A DNA stretch of 64,000 nucleotides from Octopus vulgaris (taxonomy: Eukaryota), in assembly GCA_951406725.2 (NCBI GenBank), contig OX597827.1, forward strand, positions 81,344,001 through 81,408,000. The letters are read 5' to 3'. The position numbers were made by a program. Each line of letters opens with the position of its first letter. The first letter of the stretch is position 1. Of this stretch, positions 20,227 to 59,400 are shown one piece after another.

Positions 20227-23200
20227 GTAACCATCATCATCGAATTTTGATGCTGAATGAAGAATGAAAGGATAGCTTGCAATGTCCCTACGGTTAAATA
20301 TCCGCAGTTCTGTTACTTCATGGAAAAGCTAATGAACAGAAAAAGATGACGATATCAACATTTTAAAGAAAATATCCAATGGAGACAAGAAATTTCTGAC
20401 TATAATATTCCAAGTCTCCAACTCTGAAGCTAAAATAAGGGAGATAATAAAACATTCTACGCACCATAAATGCAGTTACCTCCCGTTACTATTTTGTCTA
20501 ACTTTACTTTAAGGAAGTATTCAAGACTACTTCGAAAAGGTCAGAAATTCTTGTCAAATACCCTATTTCAACTTTCTTTTAACAAACCAAGAATACATAT
20601 CCCTTCTCTTGATAGAAGAGTACTTAAAATAAAGAAACTTTGAACAAAACTTAATGTCCCATAAATATTAACACCTTTCTTTCATATCTCCCATAAAAGT
20701 TTTGAAATTTTAAACAATTTCAACAAAAGATTCTTTCTAAAACCTCAAACTTTCAGTGAAATATTTCAATAAAAATATTCTATTTTCTTCTTTAATTTCA
20801 GATAAACTCACAAGATATGATTTAACATTCTGTGATGGAAGTAGGCTGTGTGTGGAATACATACTTACTTGCAAATGTCCTCAATCTATTACTACACAGT
20901 TGTGTCTGTGTAGATCTGAGCTATCATGTAGAAGAAGAAAGCAGTCCCTTTACTTTTGTTGGGGATATTGCTGCTGACACACAGATGGAAGAAATGGACT
21001 CTCTTGTGGGAAATAACTTCATCACATACAACCAAATGCAACAGCAATGGACAGAGAATTCACATTTATTCAACGTCACACAAGATGGTAAATTGTACAC
21101 GGCTCAAACATTGGATGCTGAGAAACTGTGTACATATGAATCAGAGTGTGTTAGATACATCAAAGTTGCTGTACATAGAAGGAAGACATTTTTGAAAGTT
21201 ATTAAAATTAAAGTAATTATAGAAGACATTAACGATCACAGCCCTGAGTTTCCTGAGACACAACTGAACATTACATATGATGAAGATGATGGAGAAGGAG
21301 CCGAAAGATTAATTCCCGAAGCCTTCGACAAAGATGTTGGAATGGAAAACTCAGAAGTTACATACAAATTGAAGAAACAATTTAGTGATCCATTTATATT
21401 GTCTGTGAGGAAAACTATCACTGGAGGGGCAAAGATAGGAATTGTTCTTGGAGACAAACTAGACAGAGAGATACAAGATAGTTACAATCTAGAAGTGATA
21501 GCTAATGATGGAGGACAACCTTCAAAACAAGGAATTCTACATGTTCATATAAAAATAATTGATGTGAATGATAACTCACCAGTTTTTTCAAAACATATTT
21601 ACAATATTTCCATCAAAAATACACATCCTAACAACAACCCTATTTTGACATTGTCTGCAAAAGACCCAGATTCTGGCAATAATGGTAAAGTGTCTTATTT
21701 TATGAGTTCAAAAACACCAGAACGTACAAGAAGACATTTCAGACTGAACCAACAAACTGGGGAATTATTTGTAGAAAAACCATTAACATCACAAACAAAG
21801 AATATTCTCAAGATGTATGTGGAGGCAAAAGATGGAGGGAATCCTTCTTTAAATTCCTTTGCCATTGTACGGGTGAATATTCTCAATGAAAAGAACCATC
21901 CCCCCAAAATAGGGATCAATTTTGTGTCTGAATTGAAGAAGGACACAGCAGCTATTTACGAAGGAACTAAAGTGGGCAGTTATCTAGCTTATGTGAATGT
22001 GGTGGACAATGATTTTGGAGCAAATGGAGAAGTGAGTTGTAAATTAGAACATGATAAAGTTGTCCTCTCACATTTAGGATCAAAGGAATACAAGATTACT
22101 CTGCAGAAACCACTTGACAGAGAAAAATTAGACCATTTTAACATGAGAATTGTGTGTGAAGACAATGGAAGCCCTGCTTTGAAGACGGAGAGAAAGATCT
22201 CAATCCAAGTAATGGATGTGAATGATGTGCAACCGCAATTTACCAAAGATACATTCCACTTCCTCACCTATGAGAATGGTAAAGCAAACTTTCCTATAGG
22301 TTTTATCAATGCCACTGACCCAGACCTGGCAAGTGCTGGTCAACTGACGTTCTCACTGTTGAGTAAAGACAGAAATAACATACCGTTCCAGGTGAGTGAT
22401 TATGGTTTTATTACCAGCAACATACCATTGGACAGAGAAGAAGAAGACATGTATAAGTTTGAGGTTTTTGTCAAAGACAATGGTAAACCGTCGTTGAATA
22501 ACACAGCGAATGTTGTTGTTGAGGTTTTAGACAGAAACGACAATAATCCGTATTTCATCTACCCTACAACTGACCCTTTCCATATCAATGTCCACTACCG
22601 CCCGCAAAGTACCAATGCCATCACTGTGATTAGAGCGTCTGACAGAGACAGTCATTTAAATGCGTTCCTCAAATATGGAATACTTGACGGTAACAATAAA
22701 CGCTTGTTTACACTCAACTCTTTAACTGGTCAAATGTCTTTCTCACGTGCACCTCATCTCAACGATGCTGGCTCATACGAACTGGTGCTTGTGGTCAAGG
22801 ATTCCGGTAGCCCAGTGTTGTCAGCCACAACTACTGTGTCTTTGTCATTAAGGGTCACTAACAAGACATCGGCACCGATGCCGACTGTCCACTTAGAGAA
22901 GAACAGAACACTGGACGTACCATTATTGATTATCCTTGTAGTAGCAGCTGTAATAGTAGCTGTGGTGATTGTAGTGTCGATCACACTGTGTATTGTGAAA
23001 TGTAGCAGTGGTCAGTCTCGCTCTGCCAAAAGCACTAGGAAAGGTGTTAATAGGTCAGCTATATGTAACAGAATTGATCAACCTTTACCGTGTCAGAGCA
23101 GCAGTATTCCTGGTACCCCAGTGAGGTACTCTTCTGAGATGAATAATAGAAACATGCCATTTGTGGAATGTAAGGAAGATTTCTACCCGCAGTATGAGTC

Positions 23201-56412: not shown

Positions 56413-59400
56413 GTAGCATCACTATCATCCTTGAATTTTGATGTTGAATAAAAGAATTGACGTTAATGCTTCTATAGTTAAATAAGAATAATTCTGTCAA
56501 TTCATGGAAAGACTAGTTAATAGAAAAGAGATTGAGATATCTATATTTTGAAGAAAATATGCAATTGTGACAAGAAATTTCAGACCATTCCATGTTTTAA
56601 AAATTTCTCCCCAGTGCATTCCTTACATAAGGGAGACAATCAAACATTGCACCACAATATATGCAGTTACCTCCCGTATTTATTTTCAGTATCTCCACGT
56701 TTAAGGAGATATTTAAGACTACTTCGAAGAAGTCTGAAATTCTTATCAAATACACTATTGCCATGCTCTTGGTGGATATAAATCACTGGATTTATATCCA
56801 ACTTTACAAGCATGTACCATGTTCTTTCTAATAAGTAAAACTGCATCATCTGTAATAAAGGGTTCTCTTGATAGAAAACAATTTAGTGAATAATGCCACG
56901 ACATACACTAAGACATATCATAAATGTTCACTCCTTTCTTTCAGCTTTACCATAATTGACATGAAATTTTTAACAATTTCAACAAAAAATTCTTTTTAAA
57001 ATCTCAAACATTCAGTGAAATTTTTCAATAAAAATTTTCTTCTGTAATTTCAGATAAACTCACGAGATATGATTTAACATTCTGTGATGGAAGTAGGCTG
57101 TGTGTGGAATACATACTTACTTGCAAATGTCCTCAATCTATTACTACACAGTTGTGTCTGTGTAGATCTGAGCTATCATGTAGAAGAAGAAAGCAGTCCC
57201 TTTACTTTTGTTGGGGATATTGCTGCTGACACACAGATGGAAGAAACGGACTCTCTTGTGGGAAATAACTTCATCACATACAACCAAATGCAACAGCAAT
57301 GGACAGAGAATTCACATTTATTCAATGTCACACAAGATGGTAAATTGTACACGGCTCAAACATTGGATGCAGAGAAACTGTGTACATACGAATCAGATTG
57401 TGTTAGATACATCAAAGTTGCTGTACGTAGAAGGAAGACATTTTTGAAAATTATTAAAATTCAGGTTATTATAGAAGACATTAACGATCACAGCCCTGAG
57501 TTTGCTCAGACACAACTGAATATTACATTTGATGAACGTGATGGAGAAGGAGCCGAAAGATTAATTCCAGATGCCTTTGACAAAGATGTTGGAATGGAAA
57601 ACTCTGAAATTACATATAAATTGAAGAAACAATTTAGTGATCCATTTATATTGTCTGTGAGAAAAACCATCACAGGAAGAGCAAAGATAGGAATTATTCT
57701 TGGAGAAAAACTAGACAGAGAAATACAAGATAGTTACAATCTAGAAGTGATAGCTAATGATGGAGGGCAACCTTCAAAAGAAGGAATTTTACAAGTTCAT
57801 ATAAAAATAATTGATGTTAACGATAACTCACCAGTTTTTTCAAAACATATTTACAATATTTCCATCAAAAATACACATCCTAACAACAACCCTATTTTGA
57901 CATTGTCTGCAAAAGACCCAGATTCTGGCAACAATGGTAAAGTGTCTTATTTCTTTAGTCCGGAAACACCAGAACGTACAAGAAGACATTTCAGACTGAA
58001 CCAACAAACTGGGGAATTATTTGTAGAAAAACCATTAACATCACAAACAAAGAATATTCTCAAGATGTATGTGGAGGCGAAAGATGGAGGGAATCCTTCT
58101 TTAAATTCCTTTGCCATTGTACGGGTGAATATTCTCAATGAAAAGAACCATCCTCCCAAAATAGGGATCAATTTTGTGTCTGAATTGAAGAAGGACACTG
58201 CAGCGATTTACGAAGGAACTAAAGTGGGCAGTTTTCTTGCTTATGTGAATGTGGTGGACAACGATGTTGGAGCAAATGGAGAAGTGAGTTGTAAATTAGA
58301 ACATGATAAAGTTGTCCTCTCACATTTAGGATCAAAGGAATACAAGATTACTCTGAAGAAACCACTTGACAGAGAAAAATTAGACCATTTTAACATGAGA
58401 ATTGTGTGTGAAGACAATGGAAGCCCTGCTTTAAAGACGGAGAGAAAGATCTCAATCCAAGTAATGGATGTGAATGATGTGCAACCGCAATTTACCAAAG
58501 ATACATTCCACTTCCTCACCTATGAGAATGGTAAAGCAAACTTTCCTATAGGTTTTATCAATGCCACTGACCCAGACCTGGCAAGTGCTGGTCAACTGAC
58601 GTTCTCACTGTTGAGTAAAGACAGAAATAACATACCGTTCCAGGTGAGTGATTATGGTTTTATTACCAGCAACATACCATTGGACAGAGAAGAAGAAGAC
58701 ATGTATAAGTTTGAGGTTTTTGTCAAAGACAATGGTAAACCGTCGTTGAATAACACAGCGAATGTTGTTGTTGAGGTTTTAGACAGAAACGACAATAATC
58801 CGTATTTCATCTACCCTACAACTGACCCTTTCCATATCAATGTCCACTACCGCCCGCAAAGTACCAATGCCATCACTGTGATTAGAGCGTCTGACAGAGA
58901 CAGTCATTTAAATGCGTTCCTCAAATATGGAATACTTGACGGTAACAATAAACGCTTGTTTACACTCAACTCTTTAACTGGTCAAATGTCTTTCTCGCGT
59001 GCACCTCATCTCAACGATGCTGGCTCATACGAACTGGTGCTTGTGGTCAAGGATTCTGGTAGCCCAGTGTTGTCAGCCACAACTACTGTGTCTTTGTCAT
59101 TAAGGGTCACTAACAAGACATCAGCACCGATGCCGACTGTCCACTTAGAGAAGAACAGAACACTGGACGTACCATTATTGATTATCCTTGTAGTAGCAGC
59201 TGTAATAGTAGCTGTGGTGATTGTAGTGTCGATCACACTGTGTATTGTGAAATGTAGCAGTGGTCAGTCTCGCTCTGCCAAGAGCACTAGGAAAGGTGTT
59301 AATAGGTCAGCTATATGTAACAGAATTGATCAACCTTTACCGTGTCAGAGCAGCAGTATTCCTGGTACCCCAGTGAGGTACTCTTCAGAGATGAATAATA

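What the first reader, a model, noticed from the sequence alone, without database searches (positions are those of the whole stretch)
21140..58390. Paralogs are patchwork recombinants of a shared pool of variants (gene-conversion shuffling)
Seen: neighbouring variant sites split the five genes in incompatible ways. VAV(H/R)RR, TG(G/R)AK and DND(F/V)G give 1,2,3|4,5; DKD(V/I)G gives 1,2,5|3,4; SE(V/I)TY gives 1,4|2,3,5; K(Q/E)GIL(H/Q)V and GS(Y/F)L give 1,2,4|3,5; R(RH/QY)F gives 1,4,5|2,3; TQLNIT..AERLIP and LDRE(K/T) give 1,5|2,3,4. All four combinations occur, for example for H/R with V/I. Inference: short-tract conversion is generating combinatorial ectodomains rather than tree-like divergence.
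Basis: partly seen in the sequence, partly recalled or inferred. Interest (0 to 1): 0.8.

Follow-up and report, generated by a model that had tools for sequence, protein, structure and literature searches.

The report
Octopus protocadherin paralogs shuffled by conversion
Five neighbouring octopus protocadherin genes are patchworks of a shared set of old variants in the front half of their adhesion domain and almost identical in the back half, the footprint of gene conversion between tandem copies, a pattern already known from vertebrate protocadherin clusters.

Summary
The window is Octopus vulgaris and holds five tandem, intact two-exon protocadherin genes (6 cadherin repeats, TM, short tail). 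At the DNA level, 51 biallelic informative sites show 9 of the 10 possible 2|3 splits. No tree fits more than 18 of the 51, 741 of 1275 site pairs fail the four-gamete test and at least 18 exchanges are needed. Compatible sites are clustered (permutation p about 1e-4; SSCF 0 of 5000). Tree-only simulations never reach the observed values (0 of 1500), and synonymous sites alone give the same picture.

Exon nt 1348-2424 (mid EC4 to the tail) is homogenised: 0.5-1.1% divergence against 3-9% in non-coding flanks, with raised GC3. In that region the Argonauta and Octopus paralogs group by species, while in EC1 they group by paralog type. That is concerted evolution.

The same variant pool recurs in other units of the array and in the independent O. 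sinensis assembly. The best reading is germline interlocus gene conversion with a protected island of diversity in EC1-EC4, as in vertebrate clustered protocadherins. This is a new member of a known kind. An assembly or polishing artefact is not fully excluded.

The parts
20835..23258 (+). Gene 1, exon 1 (808 codons: signal peptide, EC1-EC6, TM, cytoplasmic tail), ending at the donor TTG|GTAAGT
   Evidence: ORF. Donor. 100% identical to CAI9733532.1 of O. vulgaris. Pfam Cadherin x5 plus Cadherin_2.
28709..31132 (+). Gene 2, exon 1
   Evidence: Contained in the fused public model CAI9733533.1. Its first 347 aa match O. sinensis XP_036364984.1 at 346 of 347 positions.
38071..40494 (+). Gene 3, exon 1
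46851..49274 (+). Gene 4, exon 1
   Evidence: Identical to CAI9733534.1 over 808 aa.
57087..59510 (+). Gene 5, exon 1
   Evidence: Identical to CAI9733535.1 over 808 aa.
21119..22181 (+). Mosaic zone of gene 1 (exon nt 285-1347; end of EC1 to mid EC4). The same zone lies at 28993-30055, 38355-39417, 47135-48197 and 57371-58433 in genes 2-5.
   Evidence: 51 of the 53 informative sites lie here. Rm is 17-18. Pairwise divergence is 4.0-6.7%, and 7.7-13.4% at third codon positions.
21252..21320 (+). Hypervariable cassette, codons 140-162 (EC1-EC2 linker and start of EC2) in gene 1. The same codons apply in genes 2-5.
   Evidence: pS 0.39 and pN 0.15, well above the non-coding divergence of 0.03-0.09. 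14 informative sites lie between nt 423 and 472.
22182..23258 (+). Homogenised zone of gene 1 (exon nt 1348-2424; mid EC4, EC5, EC6, TM, tail). The same zone lies at 30056-31132, 39418-40494, 48198-49274 and 58434-59510 in genes 2-5.
   Evidence: Pairwise divergence is 0.5-1.1% against 3.3-9.3% in non-coding DNA. pS is 0.030. Codons 476-625 have no synonymous difference. GC3 is 0.45 against 0.30 in the 5' part. Paralogs cluster by species here.
23889..23912 (+). Gene 1, exon 2 (LPTRIKK plus stop) after a 630-nt intron. Each gene has its own copy, at 33141-33164, 41850-41873, 51411-51434 and 61239-61262.
   Evidence: Motif search with an AG acceptor. Matches the C-termini of the public models.

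Best explanation
The five genes belong to a tandem array of about 13 protocadherin genes in Octopus vulgaris. The array evolves by germline exchange between non-allelic copies (interlocus gene conversion, probably with some unequal crossing-over). Two regimes lie side by side within the large first exon.

From mid EC4 to the end of the exon, exchange has homogenised all copies (concerted evolution). This includes copies whose EC1 is more than 50% different, so every paralog carries practically the same EC5-EC6, TM and tail.

From the end of EC1 to mid EC4, old variants persist. Some are older than the repeat units' own flanks. They are reshuffled in pieces of tens to about 200 bases, so each paralog is a different combination of a limited pool of alleles.

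Shown: the mosaic, the homogenisation, the species-wise clustering, the GC3 rise, and the sharing of the pool across the array and across two species' assemblies.

Inferred: that the exchange is mostly non-crossover conversion; that selection, rather than a lower conversion rate, keeps the EC1-EC4 diversity; and that this diversity changes homophilic recognition, by analogy with vertebrate protocadherins, whose EC1-EC4 form the trans interface (established knowledge, not tested here).
For: Mosaic: 741 of 1275 site pairs are incompatible, Rm is 18, 9 of 10 possible splits occur, and the best tree fits 18 of 51 sites. Compatible sites are clustered (NSS p=0.0001; SSCF reached in 0 of 5000 permutations). 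Tree-only simulations reach the observed values in 0 of 1500 runs. Synonymous sites alone give 114 of 190 incompatible pairs.

Homogenisation: nt 1348-2424 differ by 0.5-1.1%, against 3.3-9.3% in non-coding blocks and 7.7-13.4% at third positions of nt 341-1347. pS is 0.030 against 0.121.

Concerted evolution: in aa 1-135, Argonauta Ah1 groups with the g1 type and Ah2 with Ov12/OsF (support 100/99). In aa 433-808, Ah1 and Ah2 (2 of 376 positions differ) stand against all 13 Octopus rows (100/100). g1 and Ov12 differ at 72 of 133 positions in EC1 but at 7 of 376 in the C-terminal part.

GC3 is 0.30 (aa 1-449) against 0.45 (aa 450-808), Fisher p=2.9e-5. The fugu protocadherin paper used the same signature (PMC1852091, passages).

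Pool shared beyond the window: 24 of 38 window-private states recur elsewhere. 37 of 61 orthologue differences are swaps between pool states, against 22.5% polymorphic positions (binomial 1.8e-10).

Independent assembly: O. sinensis units are colinear with O. vulgaris units and 98-99.7% identical to them. Four O. sinensis units on their own show 29 of 45 incompatible pairs.

A neighbouring sub-array shows the same layout in both species. Variable positions number 28-45 per 100 columns in columns 101-400 and 0-4 per 100 in columns 401-800, with 229 of 406 and 240 of 630 incompatible pairs.
Against: No reads could be examined. The O. vulgaris assembly is Nanopore-based and was polished with short linked reads (PMC10700109), which can move variants between 95-97% identical copies. 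Among the five window genes, only the first 347 residues of gene 2 have a near-identical counterpart in the second assembly.

No single conversion tract is significant after global correction (best: g3-g4 nt 430-473, global p 0.05-0.08), so donors and tract lengths are not resolved.

The flanks also show incompatibilities (143 of 465 pairs upstream, 18 of 55 downstream), so exchange is not aimed at the ectodomain.

pN/pS is 0.23 and never exceeds 1 in 25-codon windows, so there is no direct evidence of diversifying selection.

The cross-species and array-wide comparisons are at the protein level only and rest on public gene models, several of them fused or truncated. Orthology was assigned by smallest distance, which conversion itself can distort.

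The PHI-like, NSS and SSCF statistics are my own implementations.
Confidence: 0.8

Rival explanations
1. Assembly or polishing artefact. The mosaics arise because long-read consensus or short-read polishing mixed variants between near-identical tandem copies.
For: The assembly method was NextDenovo on Nanopore reads, HyPo polishing with 10x Illumina reads, then purge_dups (PMC10700109, passages). Blocks of shared ancestry are tens to about 200 nt long, similar to a short read. Four of the five window genes have no counterpart among the annotated O. sinensis proteins.
Against: Gene 2 is reproduced at 346 of 347 residues in the PacBio-based O. sinensis assembly. Six further units pair up colinearly with 0.4-2.3% amino-acid differences, so their combinations are the same in two assemblies made with different technology. 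O. sinensis units are mosaic on their own (29 of 45 pairs). A second sub-array shows the same pattern in both species. Polishing errors would not produce the species-wise clustering against Argonauta or the GC3 step.
Confidence: 0.07
2. Repeated unequal crossing-over between misaligned units (reciprocal exchange that also changes copy number) is the main source of the patchwork, not short non-crossover conversion tracts.
For: The array is tandem and head-to-tail, with homologous flanks. The flanks also carry incompatible sites. Copy number may differ between O. vulgaris (about 13 models) and O. sinensis (7 units found).
Against: At least 17-18 breaks fall within about 1 kb of an 8-10 kb unit. 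If crossovers were spread evenly, this would need on the order of 150 events. Each crossover would also carry one flank along, yet the flanks of units 1-3 stay close and largely follow one split (19 of 31 informative sites upstream). Internal patches such as g3-g4 nt 430-473 have different partners on both sides.
Confidence: 0.12
3. Tree-like divergence after duplication, with recurrent or convergent mutation at the same sites (for example selection for the same residues).
For: 32 of 51 informative sites are transitions and 7 of 53 lie in a CpG context. Rate heterogeneity raises homoplasy in simulations.
Against: Simulations without exchange gave on average 12-33 incompatible pairs (maximum 199) against 685 observed (0 of 1500 runs). 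Synonymous sites alone show 8 splits and 114 of 190 incompatible pairs. Removing the CpG sites changes nothing. Compatible sites are spatially clustered.
Confidence: 0.01
4. Programmed or somatic diversification: conversion between the copies happens in neurons or during development, to make cell-specific ectodomains.
For: None from this window. The idea rests only on the analogy with antigen-receptor and antigenic-variation systems.
Against: The combinations are inherited. Units keep their combinations between two species that, according to PMC10700109, split about 2.5 million years ago. All five copies are complete genes with their own start, donor and second exon, not silent donor cassettes feeding one expression site.
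Confidence: 0.02

Closest known systems
Regional gene conversion in vertebrate clustered protocadherins. Sources: zebrafish and human, Noonan et al. 2004 (paper not held; known to me from recall and from citing passages); fugu, Yu et al. 2007 (PMC1852091, passages read).
   Same: Tandem large first exons encode six cadherin repeats. The 3' part of the exon is more than 99% identical among neighbouring paralogs, with a discrete boundary in EC4/EC5. The 5' ectodomain repeats are divergent. GC3 is raised in the homogenised part. Homogenisation is lineage-specific.
   Different: The octopus genes do not share constant exons: each has its own tiny second exon, and the tail itself lies inside the homogenised first exon. 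The expansion is independent of the vertebrate one, as the passages of PMC9068888 state. Here the 5' part is not merely spared by conversion but is itself a fine-grained mosaic.
Cephalopod protocadherin arrays. Sources: Albertin et al. 2015 (recalled; cited in the Styfhals 2019 passage); Albertin et al. 2022 (PMC9068888, passages); Styfhals et al. 2019 (PMC6339937, passages).
   Same: The locus is of the same type: sub-arrays of closely related, same-orientation, whole-gene duplicates. [quoted passage not shown]
   Different: In the passages I read, conversion is offered in one sentence as a possibility. I found no region-by-region, four-gamete or cross-species analysis (searches; passages). 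Supplements were closed and might hold more.
Patchwork paralogs made by interlocus conversion under diversity-preserving selection, as in MHC class I/II, KIR and olfactory receptor clusters (recalled; the review PMC3966226 was seen only in the listing).
   Same: A limited pool of old motifs is reshuffled among tandem paralogs. Synonymous diversity is high around the variable patch. Flanking or structural parts are homogenised.
   Different: No excess of non-synonymous change is seen here (pN/pS 0.23). The ligand is presumably the same protein on another cell, not a foreign molecule.

Membership tests
Protocadherin (cadherin superfamily, six-repeat type) | Several extracellular cadherin repeats with an N-terminal protocadherin-type first repeat | tested here: met
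   Pfam Cadherin PF00028 (E 8e-68, 5 stretches) and Cadherin_2 PF08266 at aa 28-113.
Protocadherin (cadherin superfamily, six-repeat type) | Ectodomain colinear with solved six-repeat protocadherin ectodomains | tested here: met
   aa 29-670 align with 6vg1, aa 28-671 with Pcdh10 EC1-6 (6vg4) and aa 78-670 with Pcdh gamma-B4 EC1-6 (6e6b), at E 1e-77 to 1e-86.
Protocadherin (cadherin superfamily, six-repeat type) | Single transmembrane helix and a cytoplasmic tail without the classical cadherin catenin-binding domain | tested here: inconclusive
   A hydrophobic stretch at about aa 699-723 is visible in the translation, and no cytoplasmic cadherin domain was reported by Pfam. No transmembrane predictor was run.
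Vertebrate-type clustered protocadherin locus | Variable first exons spliced to shared constant exons | tested here: not met
   Each of the five units has its own acceptor and second exon (LPTRIKK, stop) 630-2136 nt after its donor. PMC9068888 says the same of cephalopods in general.
Vertebrate-type clustered protocadherin locus | Tandem, same-strand large exons each encoding the whole ectodomain, TM and proximal tail | tested here: met
   Five + strand exons of 2424 nt, spaced 7.9-10.2 kb apart.
Concerted evolution by interlocus gene conversion | Paralogs group by species in one part of the gene and by orthology in another | tested here: met
   Region trees of 15 full-length units, with support 100/99 and 100/100.
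Concerted evolution by interlocus gene conversion | Homogenisation also at synonymous sites, below the neutral level of the flanks | tested here: met
   pS 0.030 against 0.121. Divergence 0.5-1.1% against 3.3-9.3% in non-coding DNA.
Concerted evolution by interlocus gene conversion | Incompatible sites clustered along the sequence (recombination tests) | tested here: met
Concerted evolution by interlocus gene conversion | Raised GC at third codon positions in the converted region (GC-biased conversion) | tested here: met
   GC3 0.45 against 0.30, p=2.9e-5; fourfold-degenerate sites 0.41 against 0.30, p=0.024.
Concerted evolution by interlocus gene conversion | Conversion events seen directly (pedigrees, sperm typing, spanning reads) | not testable with these tools
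   No read or population data were available.
Programmed diversification by gene conversion (donor cassettes feeding an expression site) | Silent or partial donor copies and one expressed acceptor | tested here: not met
   All five copies have an ATG, an open 808-codon exon, a GTAAGT donor and their own exon 2. tblastn found no partial copies in the window.

The most novel reading that the evidence does not exclude
Octopus protocadherin arrays have independently arrived at the vertebrate layout of 'variable recognition part plus constant part', but by another route. Vertebrates splice variable exons to shared constant exons. In octopus, concerted evolution instead keeps EC5-EC6, TM and tail virtually identical in every copy (a 'virtual constant region'). 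Meanwhile selection holds an old pool of EC1-EC4 variants that ongoing conversion reshuffles into new recognition specificities. The reshuffling is fast enough that the repertoire already differs between O. vulgaris and O. sinensis.
Probability: 0.35. Interest if true: 0.7.

Novelty: new member of a known kind. Interest (0 to 1): 0.5.

Why it matters
Cephalopods expanded protocadherins independently of vertebrates, and whether these genes serve as a neuronal recognition code is an open question. This array shows the same evolutionary regime as the vertebrate clusters: a homogenised membrane-proximal and cytoplasmic part, and a protected, reshuffled EC1-EC4 part. That argues for a similar division of labour within the protein.

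It also supplies a natural panel of paralogs that differ at only 21-36 of 808 residues, all but a few of them in EC1-EC4. Cell-aggregation tests of specificity could use this panel directly.

There is a practical warning too. Phylogenies and orthology calls for octopus protocadherins should use EC1-EC3 only. Gene models in these arrays are error-prone; fused models of 1571 and 4660 residues were seen.

Tried and rejected
(1) Complex prediction on two copies of aa 27-466 (EC1-EC4) of gene 1 returned 'no answer' (score 0.00; controls not run; my alignment A2 was not used). It says nothing for or against homophilic binding.

(2) Five-way alignments of whole units and flanks are poor outside the exon. 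Only 813 of 4367 upstream columns and 679 of 7515 downstream columns passed my reliability filter, so the flank statistics are weak. Unit 5's flanks are 15-18% diverged or not alignable.

(3) Individual GENECONV-like fragments were not significant after global correction, so I do not name donors or tract ends.

(4) I looked for positive selection with Nei-Gojobori pN/pS by domain and in 25-codon windows. None exceeded 1.

(5) The Noonan et al. 2004 paper (PMC353213) is not held. What I say of it comes from recall and from citing passages.

(6) BLAST hits that looked like a 200-nt palindromic element in the spacers turned out to be (TA)n-like low-complexity DNA.

(7) Cluster P0024 was listed but not analysed.

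(8) DNA of the O. sinensis or Argonauta arrays could not be reached, because the only open genome collection holds bacteria and archaea. All comparisons outside the window are therefore at the protein level.

(9) Supplements of the cited papers were closed and were not seen.

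
Full report
WHAT IS THERE. The window has no N and is octopus, not human. The first large ORF is 100% identical to CAI9733532.1, 'protocadherin beta-15-like' of Octopus vulgaris, on an 84.7-Mb contig. Five + strand ORFs start at 20835, 28709, 38071, 46851 and 57087. Each is an exon of 2424 nt (808 codons) that ends at TTG|GTAAGT.

Each exon is followed, 630-2136 nt later, by its own acceptor and a seven-codon second exon (LPTRIKK, stop) at 23889, 33141, 41850, 51411 and 61239. 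This matches the C-termini of the public models. I searched exon 1 alone. Exon 2 is too short to search, and I never built or searched the joined exon 1 + exon 2 model.

Pfam finds five Cadherin stretches plus the protocadherin-type Cadherin_2. Residues 29-670 align with solved six-repeat protocadherin ectodomains. tblastn finds no further copies or fragments in the window. Homology with the array's spacers begins near 17.87 kb, so gene 1 is the first unit in this window.

THE OBSERVATION. At the DNA level, 2430 aligned bases hold 149 variable sites, 53 of them informative, and these show 9 of the 10 possible 2|3 splits. Of 1275 pairs of the 51 biallelic informative sites, 741 fail the four-gamete test. 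At least 18 exchanges are needed. The best of the 15 topologies accounts for 18 of 51 sites.

Sites that agree lie together. The neighbour similarity score is 0.68 against 0.42 (p=0.0001). A PHI-like statistic gives p=0.0001, 0.0015 and 0.008 for neighbourhoods of 3, 5 and 10 sites. Sawyer's SSCF is 4241 against 2640 +/- 155, reached in 0 of 5000 permutations. These three statistics are my own implementations.

Sequences simulated on the best-fitting tree without exchange, even with strong rate heterogeneity, gave at most 199 incompatible pairs and Rm 15. The observed values in nt 1-1350 are 685 and 17 (0 of 1500 runs). The 20 informative sites that change no amino acid still show 8 splits and 114 of 190 incompatible pairs. 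Dropping CpG sites or the hypervariable codons 140-162 does not change the result. Recurrent mutation and convergent selection are therefore excluded as the main cause.

Variation is confined to the 5' part: 126 of 149 variable sites lie in nt 1-1296. Pairwise divergence is 4.0-6.7% in nt 341-1347 (7.7-13.4% at third positions). It is only 0.5-1.1% in nt 1348-2424. Homologous non-coding blocks of the same units differ by 3.3-9.3% (the 80%-identity filter biases that figure downward).

Mean pS is 0.121 in aa 1-432 and 0.030 in aa 433-808, and codons 476-625 have no synonymous difference at all. So the 3' half is kept far below the neutral level of its own surroundings. Homology among the units stops about 15 nt after the donor. 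GC3 rises from 0.30 (aa 1-449; 0.22 in EC2) to 0.45 (aa 450-808), p=2.9e-5. Yu et al. took this signature as evidence of repeated conversion in fugu protocadherins (PMC1852091, passages).

CONCERTED EVOLUTION SHOWN WITH AN OUTGROUP. The 90% cluster of gene 1 holds 15 named proteins. I cut them into 18 unit pieces beside the five window genes. Trees were built from the 15 full-length units. The partial pieces Ov6, Ov7a, Ov7b, Ov9, Ov11, OsB, OsG1 and OsG2 were left out.

In aa 1-135 the two Argonauta hians paralogs go to two different Octopus types: Ah1 with the g1 type, and Ah2 with Ov12/OsF, at 100/99 support. In aa 433-808 the two Argonauta proteins (2 of 376 positions differ) stand together against all 13 Octopus rows, at 100/100. 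Gene 1 and Ov12 differ at 72 of 133 positions in EC1 and at 7 of 376 in the C-terminal part. The two paralog types are therefore older than the Octopus-Argonauta split, and their 3' halves were homogenised separately in each lineage. EC2 and aa 356-432 are also closer within species than between orthologues. EC1 and EC3 are not.

THE POOL REACHES BEYOND THE WINDOW AND INTO A SECOND ASSEMBLY. O. sinensis units pair colinearly with O. vulgaris units:
- OsG1 with gene 2: 1 of 347 differ.
- OsA with Ov7: 3 of 332 and 1 of 372.
- OsB with Ov8: 7 of 587.
- OsC with Ov9: 9 of 573.
- OsD with Ov10: 9 of 808.
- OsE with Ov11: 15 of 661.
- OsF with Ov12: 11 of 788.

According to the passages read, the O. 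sinensis assembly is PacBio-based, and the O. vulgaris one is Nanopore-based and polished with short reads. The combinations are therefore largely reproduced by different technology in a species that split about 2.5 million years ago.

Of the 61 differences between these pairs, 37 are swaps between two states that both occur in other units, while only 22.5% of positions are polymorphic at all (binomial 1.8e-10). This is what continuing conversion predicts. Of the 38 residue states private to one window gene, 24 recur in units outside the window. Four O. sinensis units alone give 29 of 45 incompatible pairs, and eight O. vulgaris units give 373 of 561.

A neighbouring sub-array has the same layout in both species. 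I analysed 7 O. vulgaris and 8 O. sinensis proteins, which are the 15 listed of the 24 members of cluster P0041. Variable positions number 28-45 per 100 columns in columns 101-400, and 0-4 per 100 in columns 401-800. Incompatible pairs are 229 of 406 and 240 of 630.

AGE OF THE VARIANTS AND SELECTION. Codons 140-162 (the EC1-EC2 linker and the start of EC2) have pS 0.39 and pN 0.15. That is several times the non-coding divergence, so these cassettes are older than the units' flanks. 12 of the 38 private states also occur in Argonauta.

pN/pS is 0.23 over aa 1-432 and never exceeds 1 in 25-codon windows. Diversifying selection is therefore not shown. The persistence of old variants despite evident exchange is compatible with selection against homogenisation, as proposed for vertebrates, but also with import from more distant copies.

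The flanks show incompatibilities too: 143 of 465 pairs upstream with Rm 8, and 18 of 55 downstream. They are dominated by one split (19 of 31 informative sites upstream) and show no significant clustering. Exchange is thus not aimed at the ectodomain. It is the outcome that differs by region.

MECHANISM. I commit, at confidence 0.8, to germline interlocus gene conversion in a tandem array, with some unequal crossing-over. It homogenises mid EC4 through the tail and reshuffles an old variant pool in EC1-EC4.

Shown: the mosaic, the homogenisation, the species-wise clustering, the GC3 step and the cross-assembly agreement.

Inferred: non-crossover tracts as the main event. At least 17-18 breaks in about 1 kb of an 8-10 kb unit would need very many crossovers, and internal patches have different partners on both sides. 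Also inferred are selection as the keeper of diversity, and an effect on homophilic specificity. The last rests on established knowledge that EC1-EC4 form the trans interface of vertebrate protocadherins; I did not test it. One complex prediction returned no verdict.

WHAT IS KNOWN. Regional conversion with a boundary in EC4/EC5, more than 99% identical 3' parts and raised GC3 is described for fugu, and by citation for zebrafish and human clusters (PMC1852091). [quoted passage not shown] They also state that cephalopods lack shared constant exons, which the window confirms.

Searches for cephalopod protocadherins with 'concerted evolution' (0 papers), with 'gene conversion' (13 papers), and with tandem/paralog/conversion from 2020 onward (2 papers; passages of one read) showed no region-by-region analysis. 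Supplements and non-open papers (Albertin 2015; Wang and Ragsdale 2017) were not seen.

I therefore rate this a new member of a known kind. The phenomenon is well known, and this case is a clean, independently evolved instance in octopus.

CAVEATS. No reads were examined. A polishing artefact is not excluded for genes 1, 3, 4 and 5 individually. Everything outside the window is at the protein level and rests on public gene models, some of them fused (CAI9733533.1 joins genes 2 and 3; XP_036365280.1 joins six units) or truncated. Orthology was assigned by smallest distance.

Noticed in passing
window 28709-40494 (genes 2 and 3): The public O. vulgaris model CAI9733533.1 (1571 aa, 'cadherin-related tumor suppressor-like') is a read-through fusion of genes 2 and 3. 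The O. sinensis model XP_036365280.1 (4660 aa) fuses six units of the same array. Annotation in these arrays is unreliable.
   Followed up: partly
window 9843-10730 (+): This ORF carries a partial reverse-transcriptase domain (RVT_1, E 1e-8). It is probably a retroelement remnant upstream of the array. The ORFs at 9077-9685 (-) and 15542-16237 (-) have no Pfam match.
   Followed up: partly
window 51912-52265, with similar stretches near 34215-34450, 42922-43150, 16700-16970 and 2970-3180: A long (TA)n array (178 copies) and TA-rich low-complexity stretches lie in the spacers. They give two-strand BLAST hits. The 264-aa ORF at 51519-52313 overlaps the array and is most likely spurious (no Pfam match).
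   Followed up: partly
window 24001-26000, 32001-34000 and 42001-44000: Each spacer downstream of genes 1-3 holds a stretch of strongly negative GC skew (-0.21 to -0.36). The intron of gene 5 begins with a TCTA/TCTG-type microsatellite. The nature of the skewed stretches was not examined.
   Followed up: no
window 20707-20834 and the equivalent bases before genes 2-5: The roughly 130-230 nt directly upstream of each ATG, together with codons 1-50, are almost identical among the five units (2.8% in the window -128..+172; pS 0 in codons 1-50). Further upstream the homology decays. This may be a second homogenised block covering the promoter-proximal DNA and the signal peptide.
   Followed up: no
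window 47011-47090 (gene 4, exon nt 161-240): Gene 4 carries a cluster of differences that are private within the window (IQRQRTG instead of MQQQWTE). The same cluster is found in Ov6, Ov7, Ov8 and O. sinensis unit A outside the window. It looks like an EC1 cassette exchanged as a block.
   Followed up: partly
outside the window: O. sinensis XP_036365280.1, unit E: A third EC1 type exists in the same array. It differs at 59 of 135 positions from the g1 type and at 53 of 133 from the Ov12 type, yet carries the common 3' half (5 of 348 differences from g1).
   Followed up: partly
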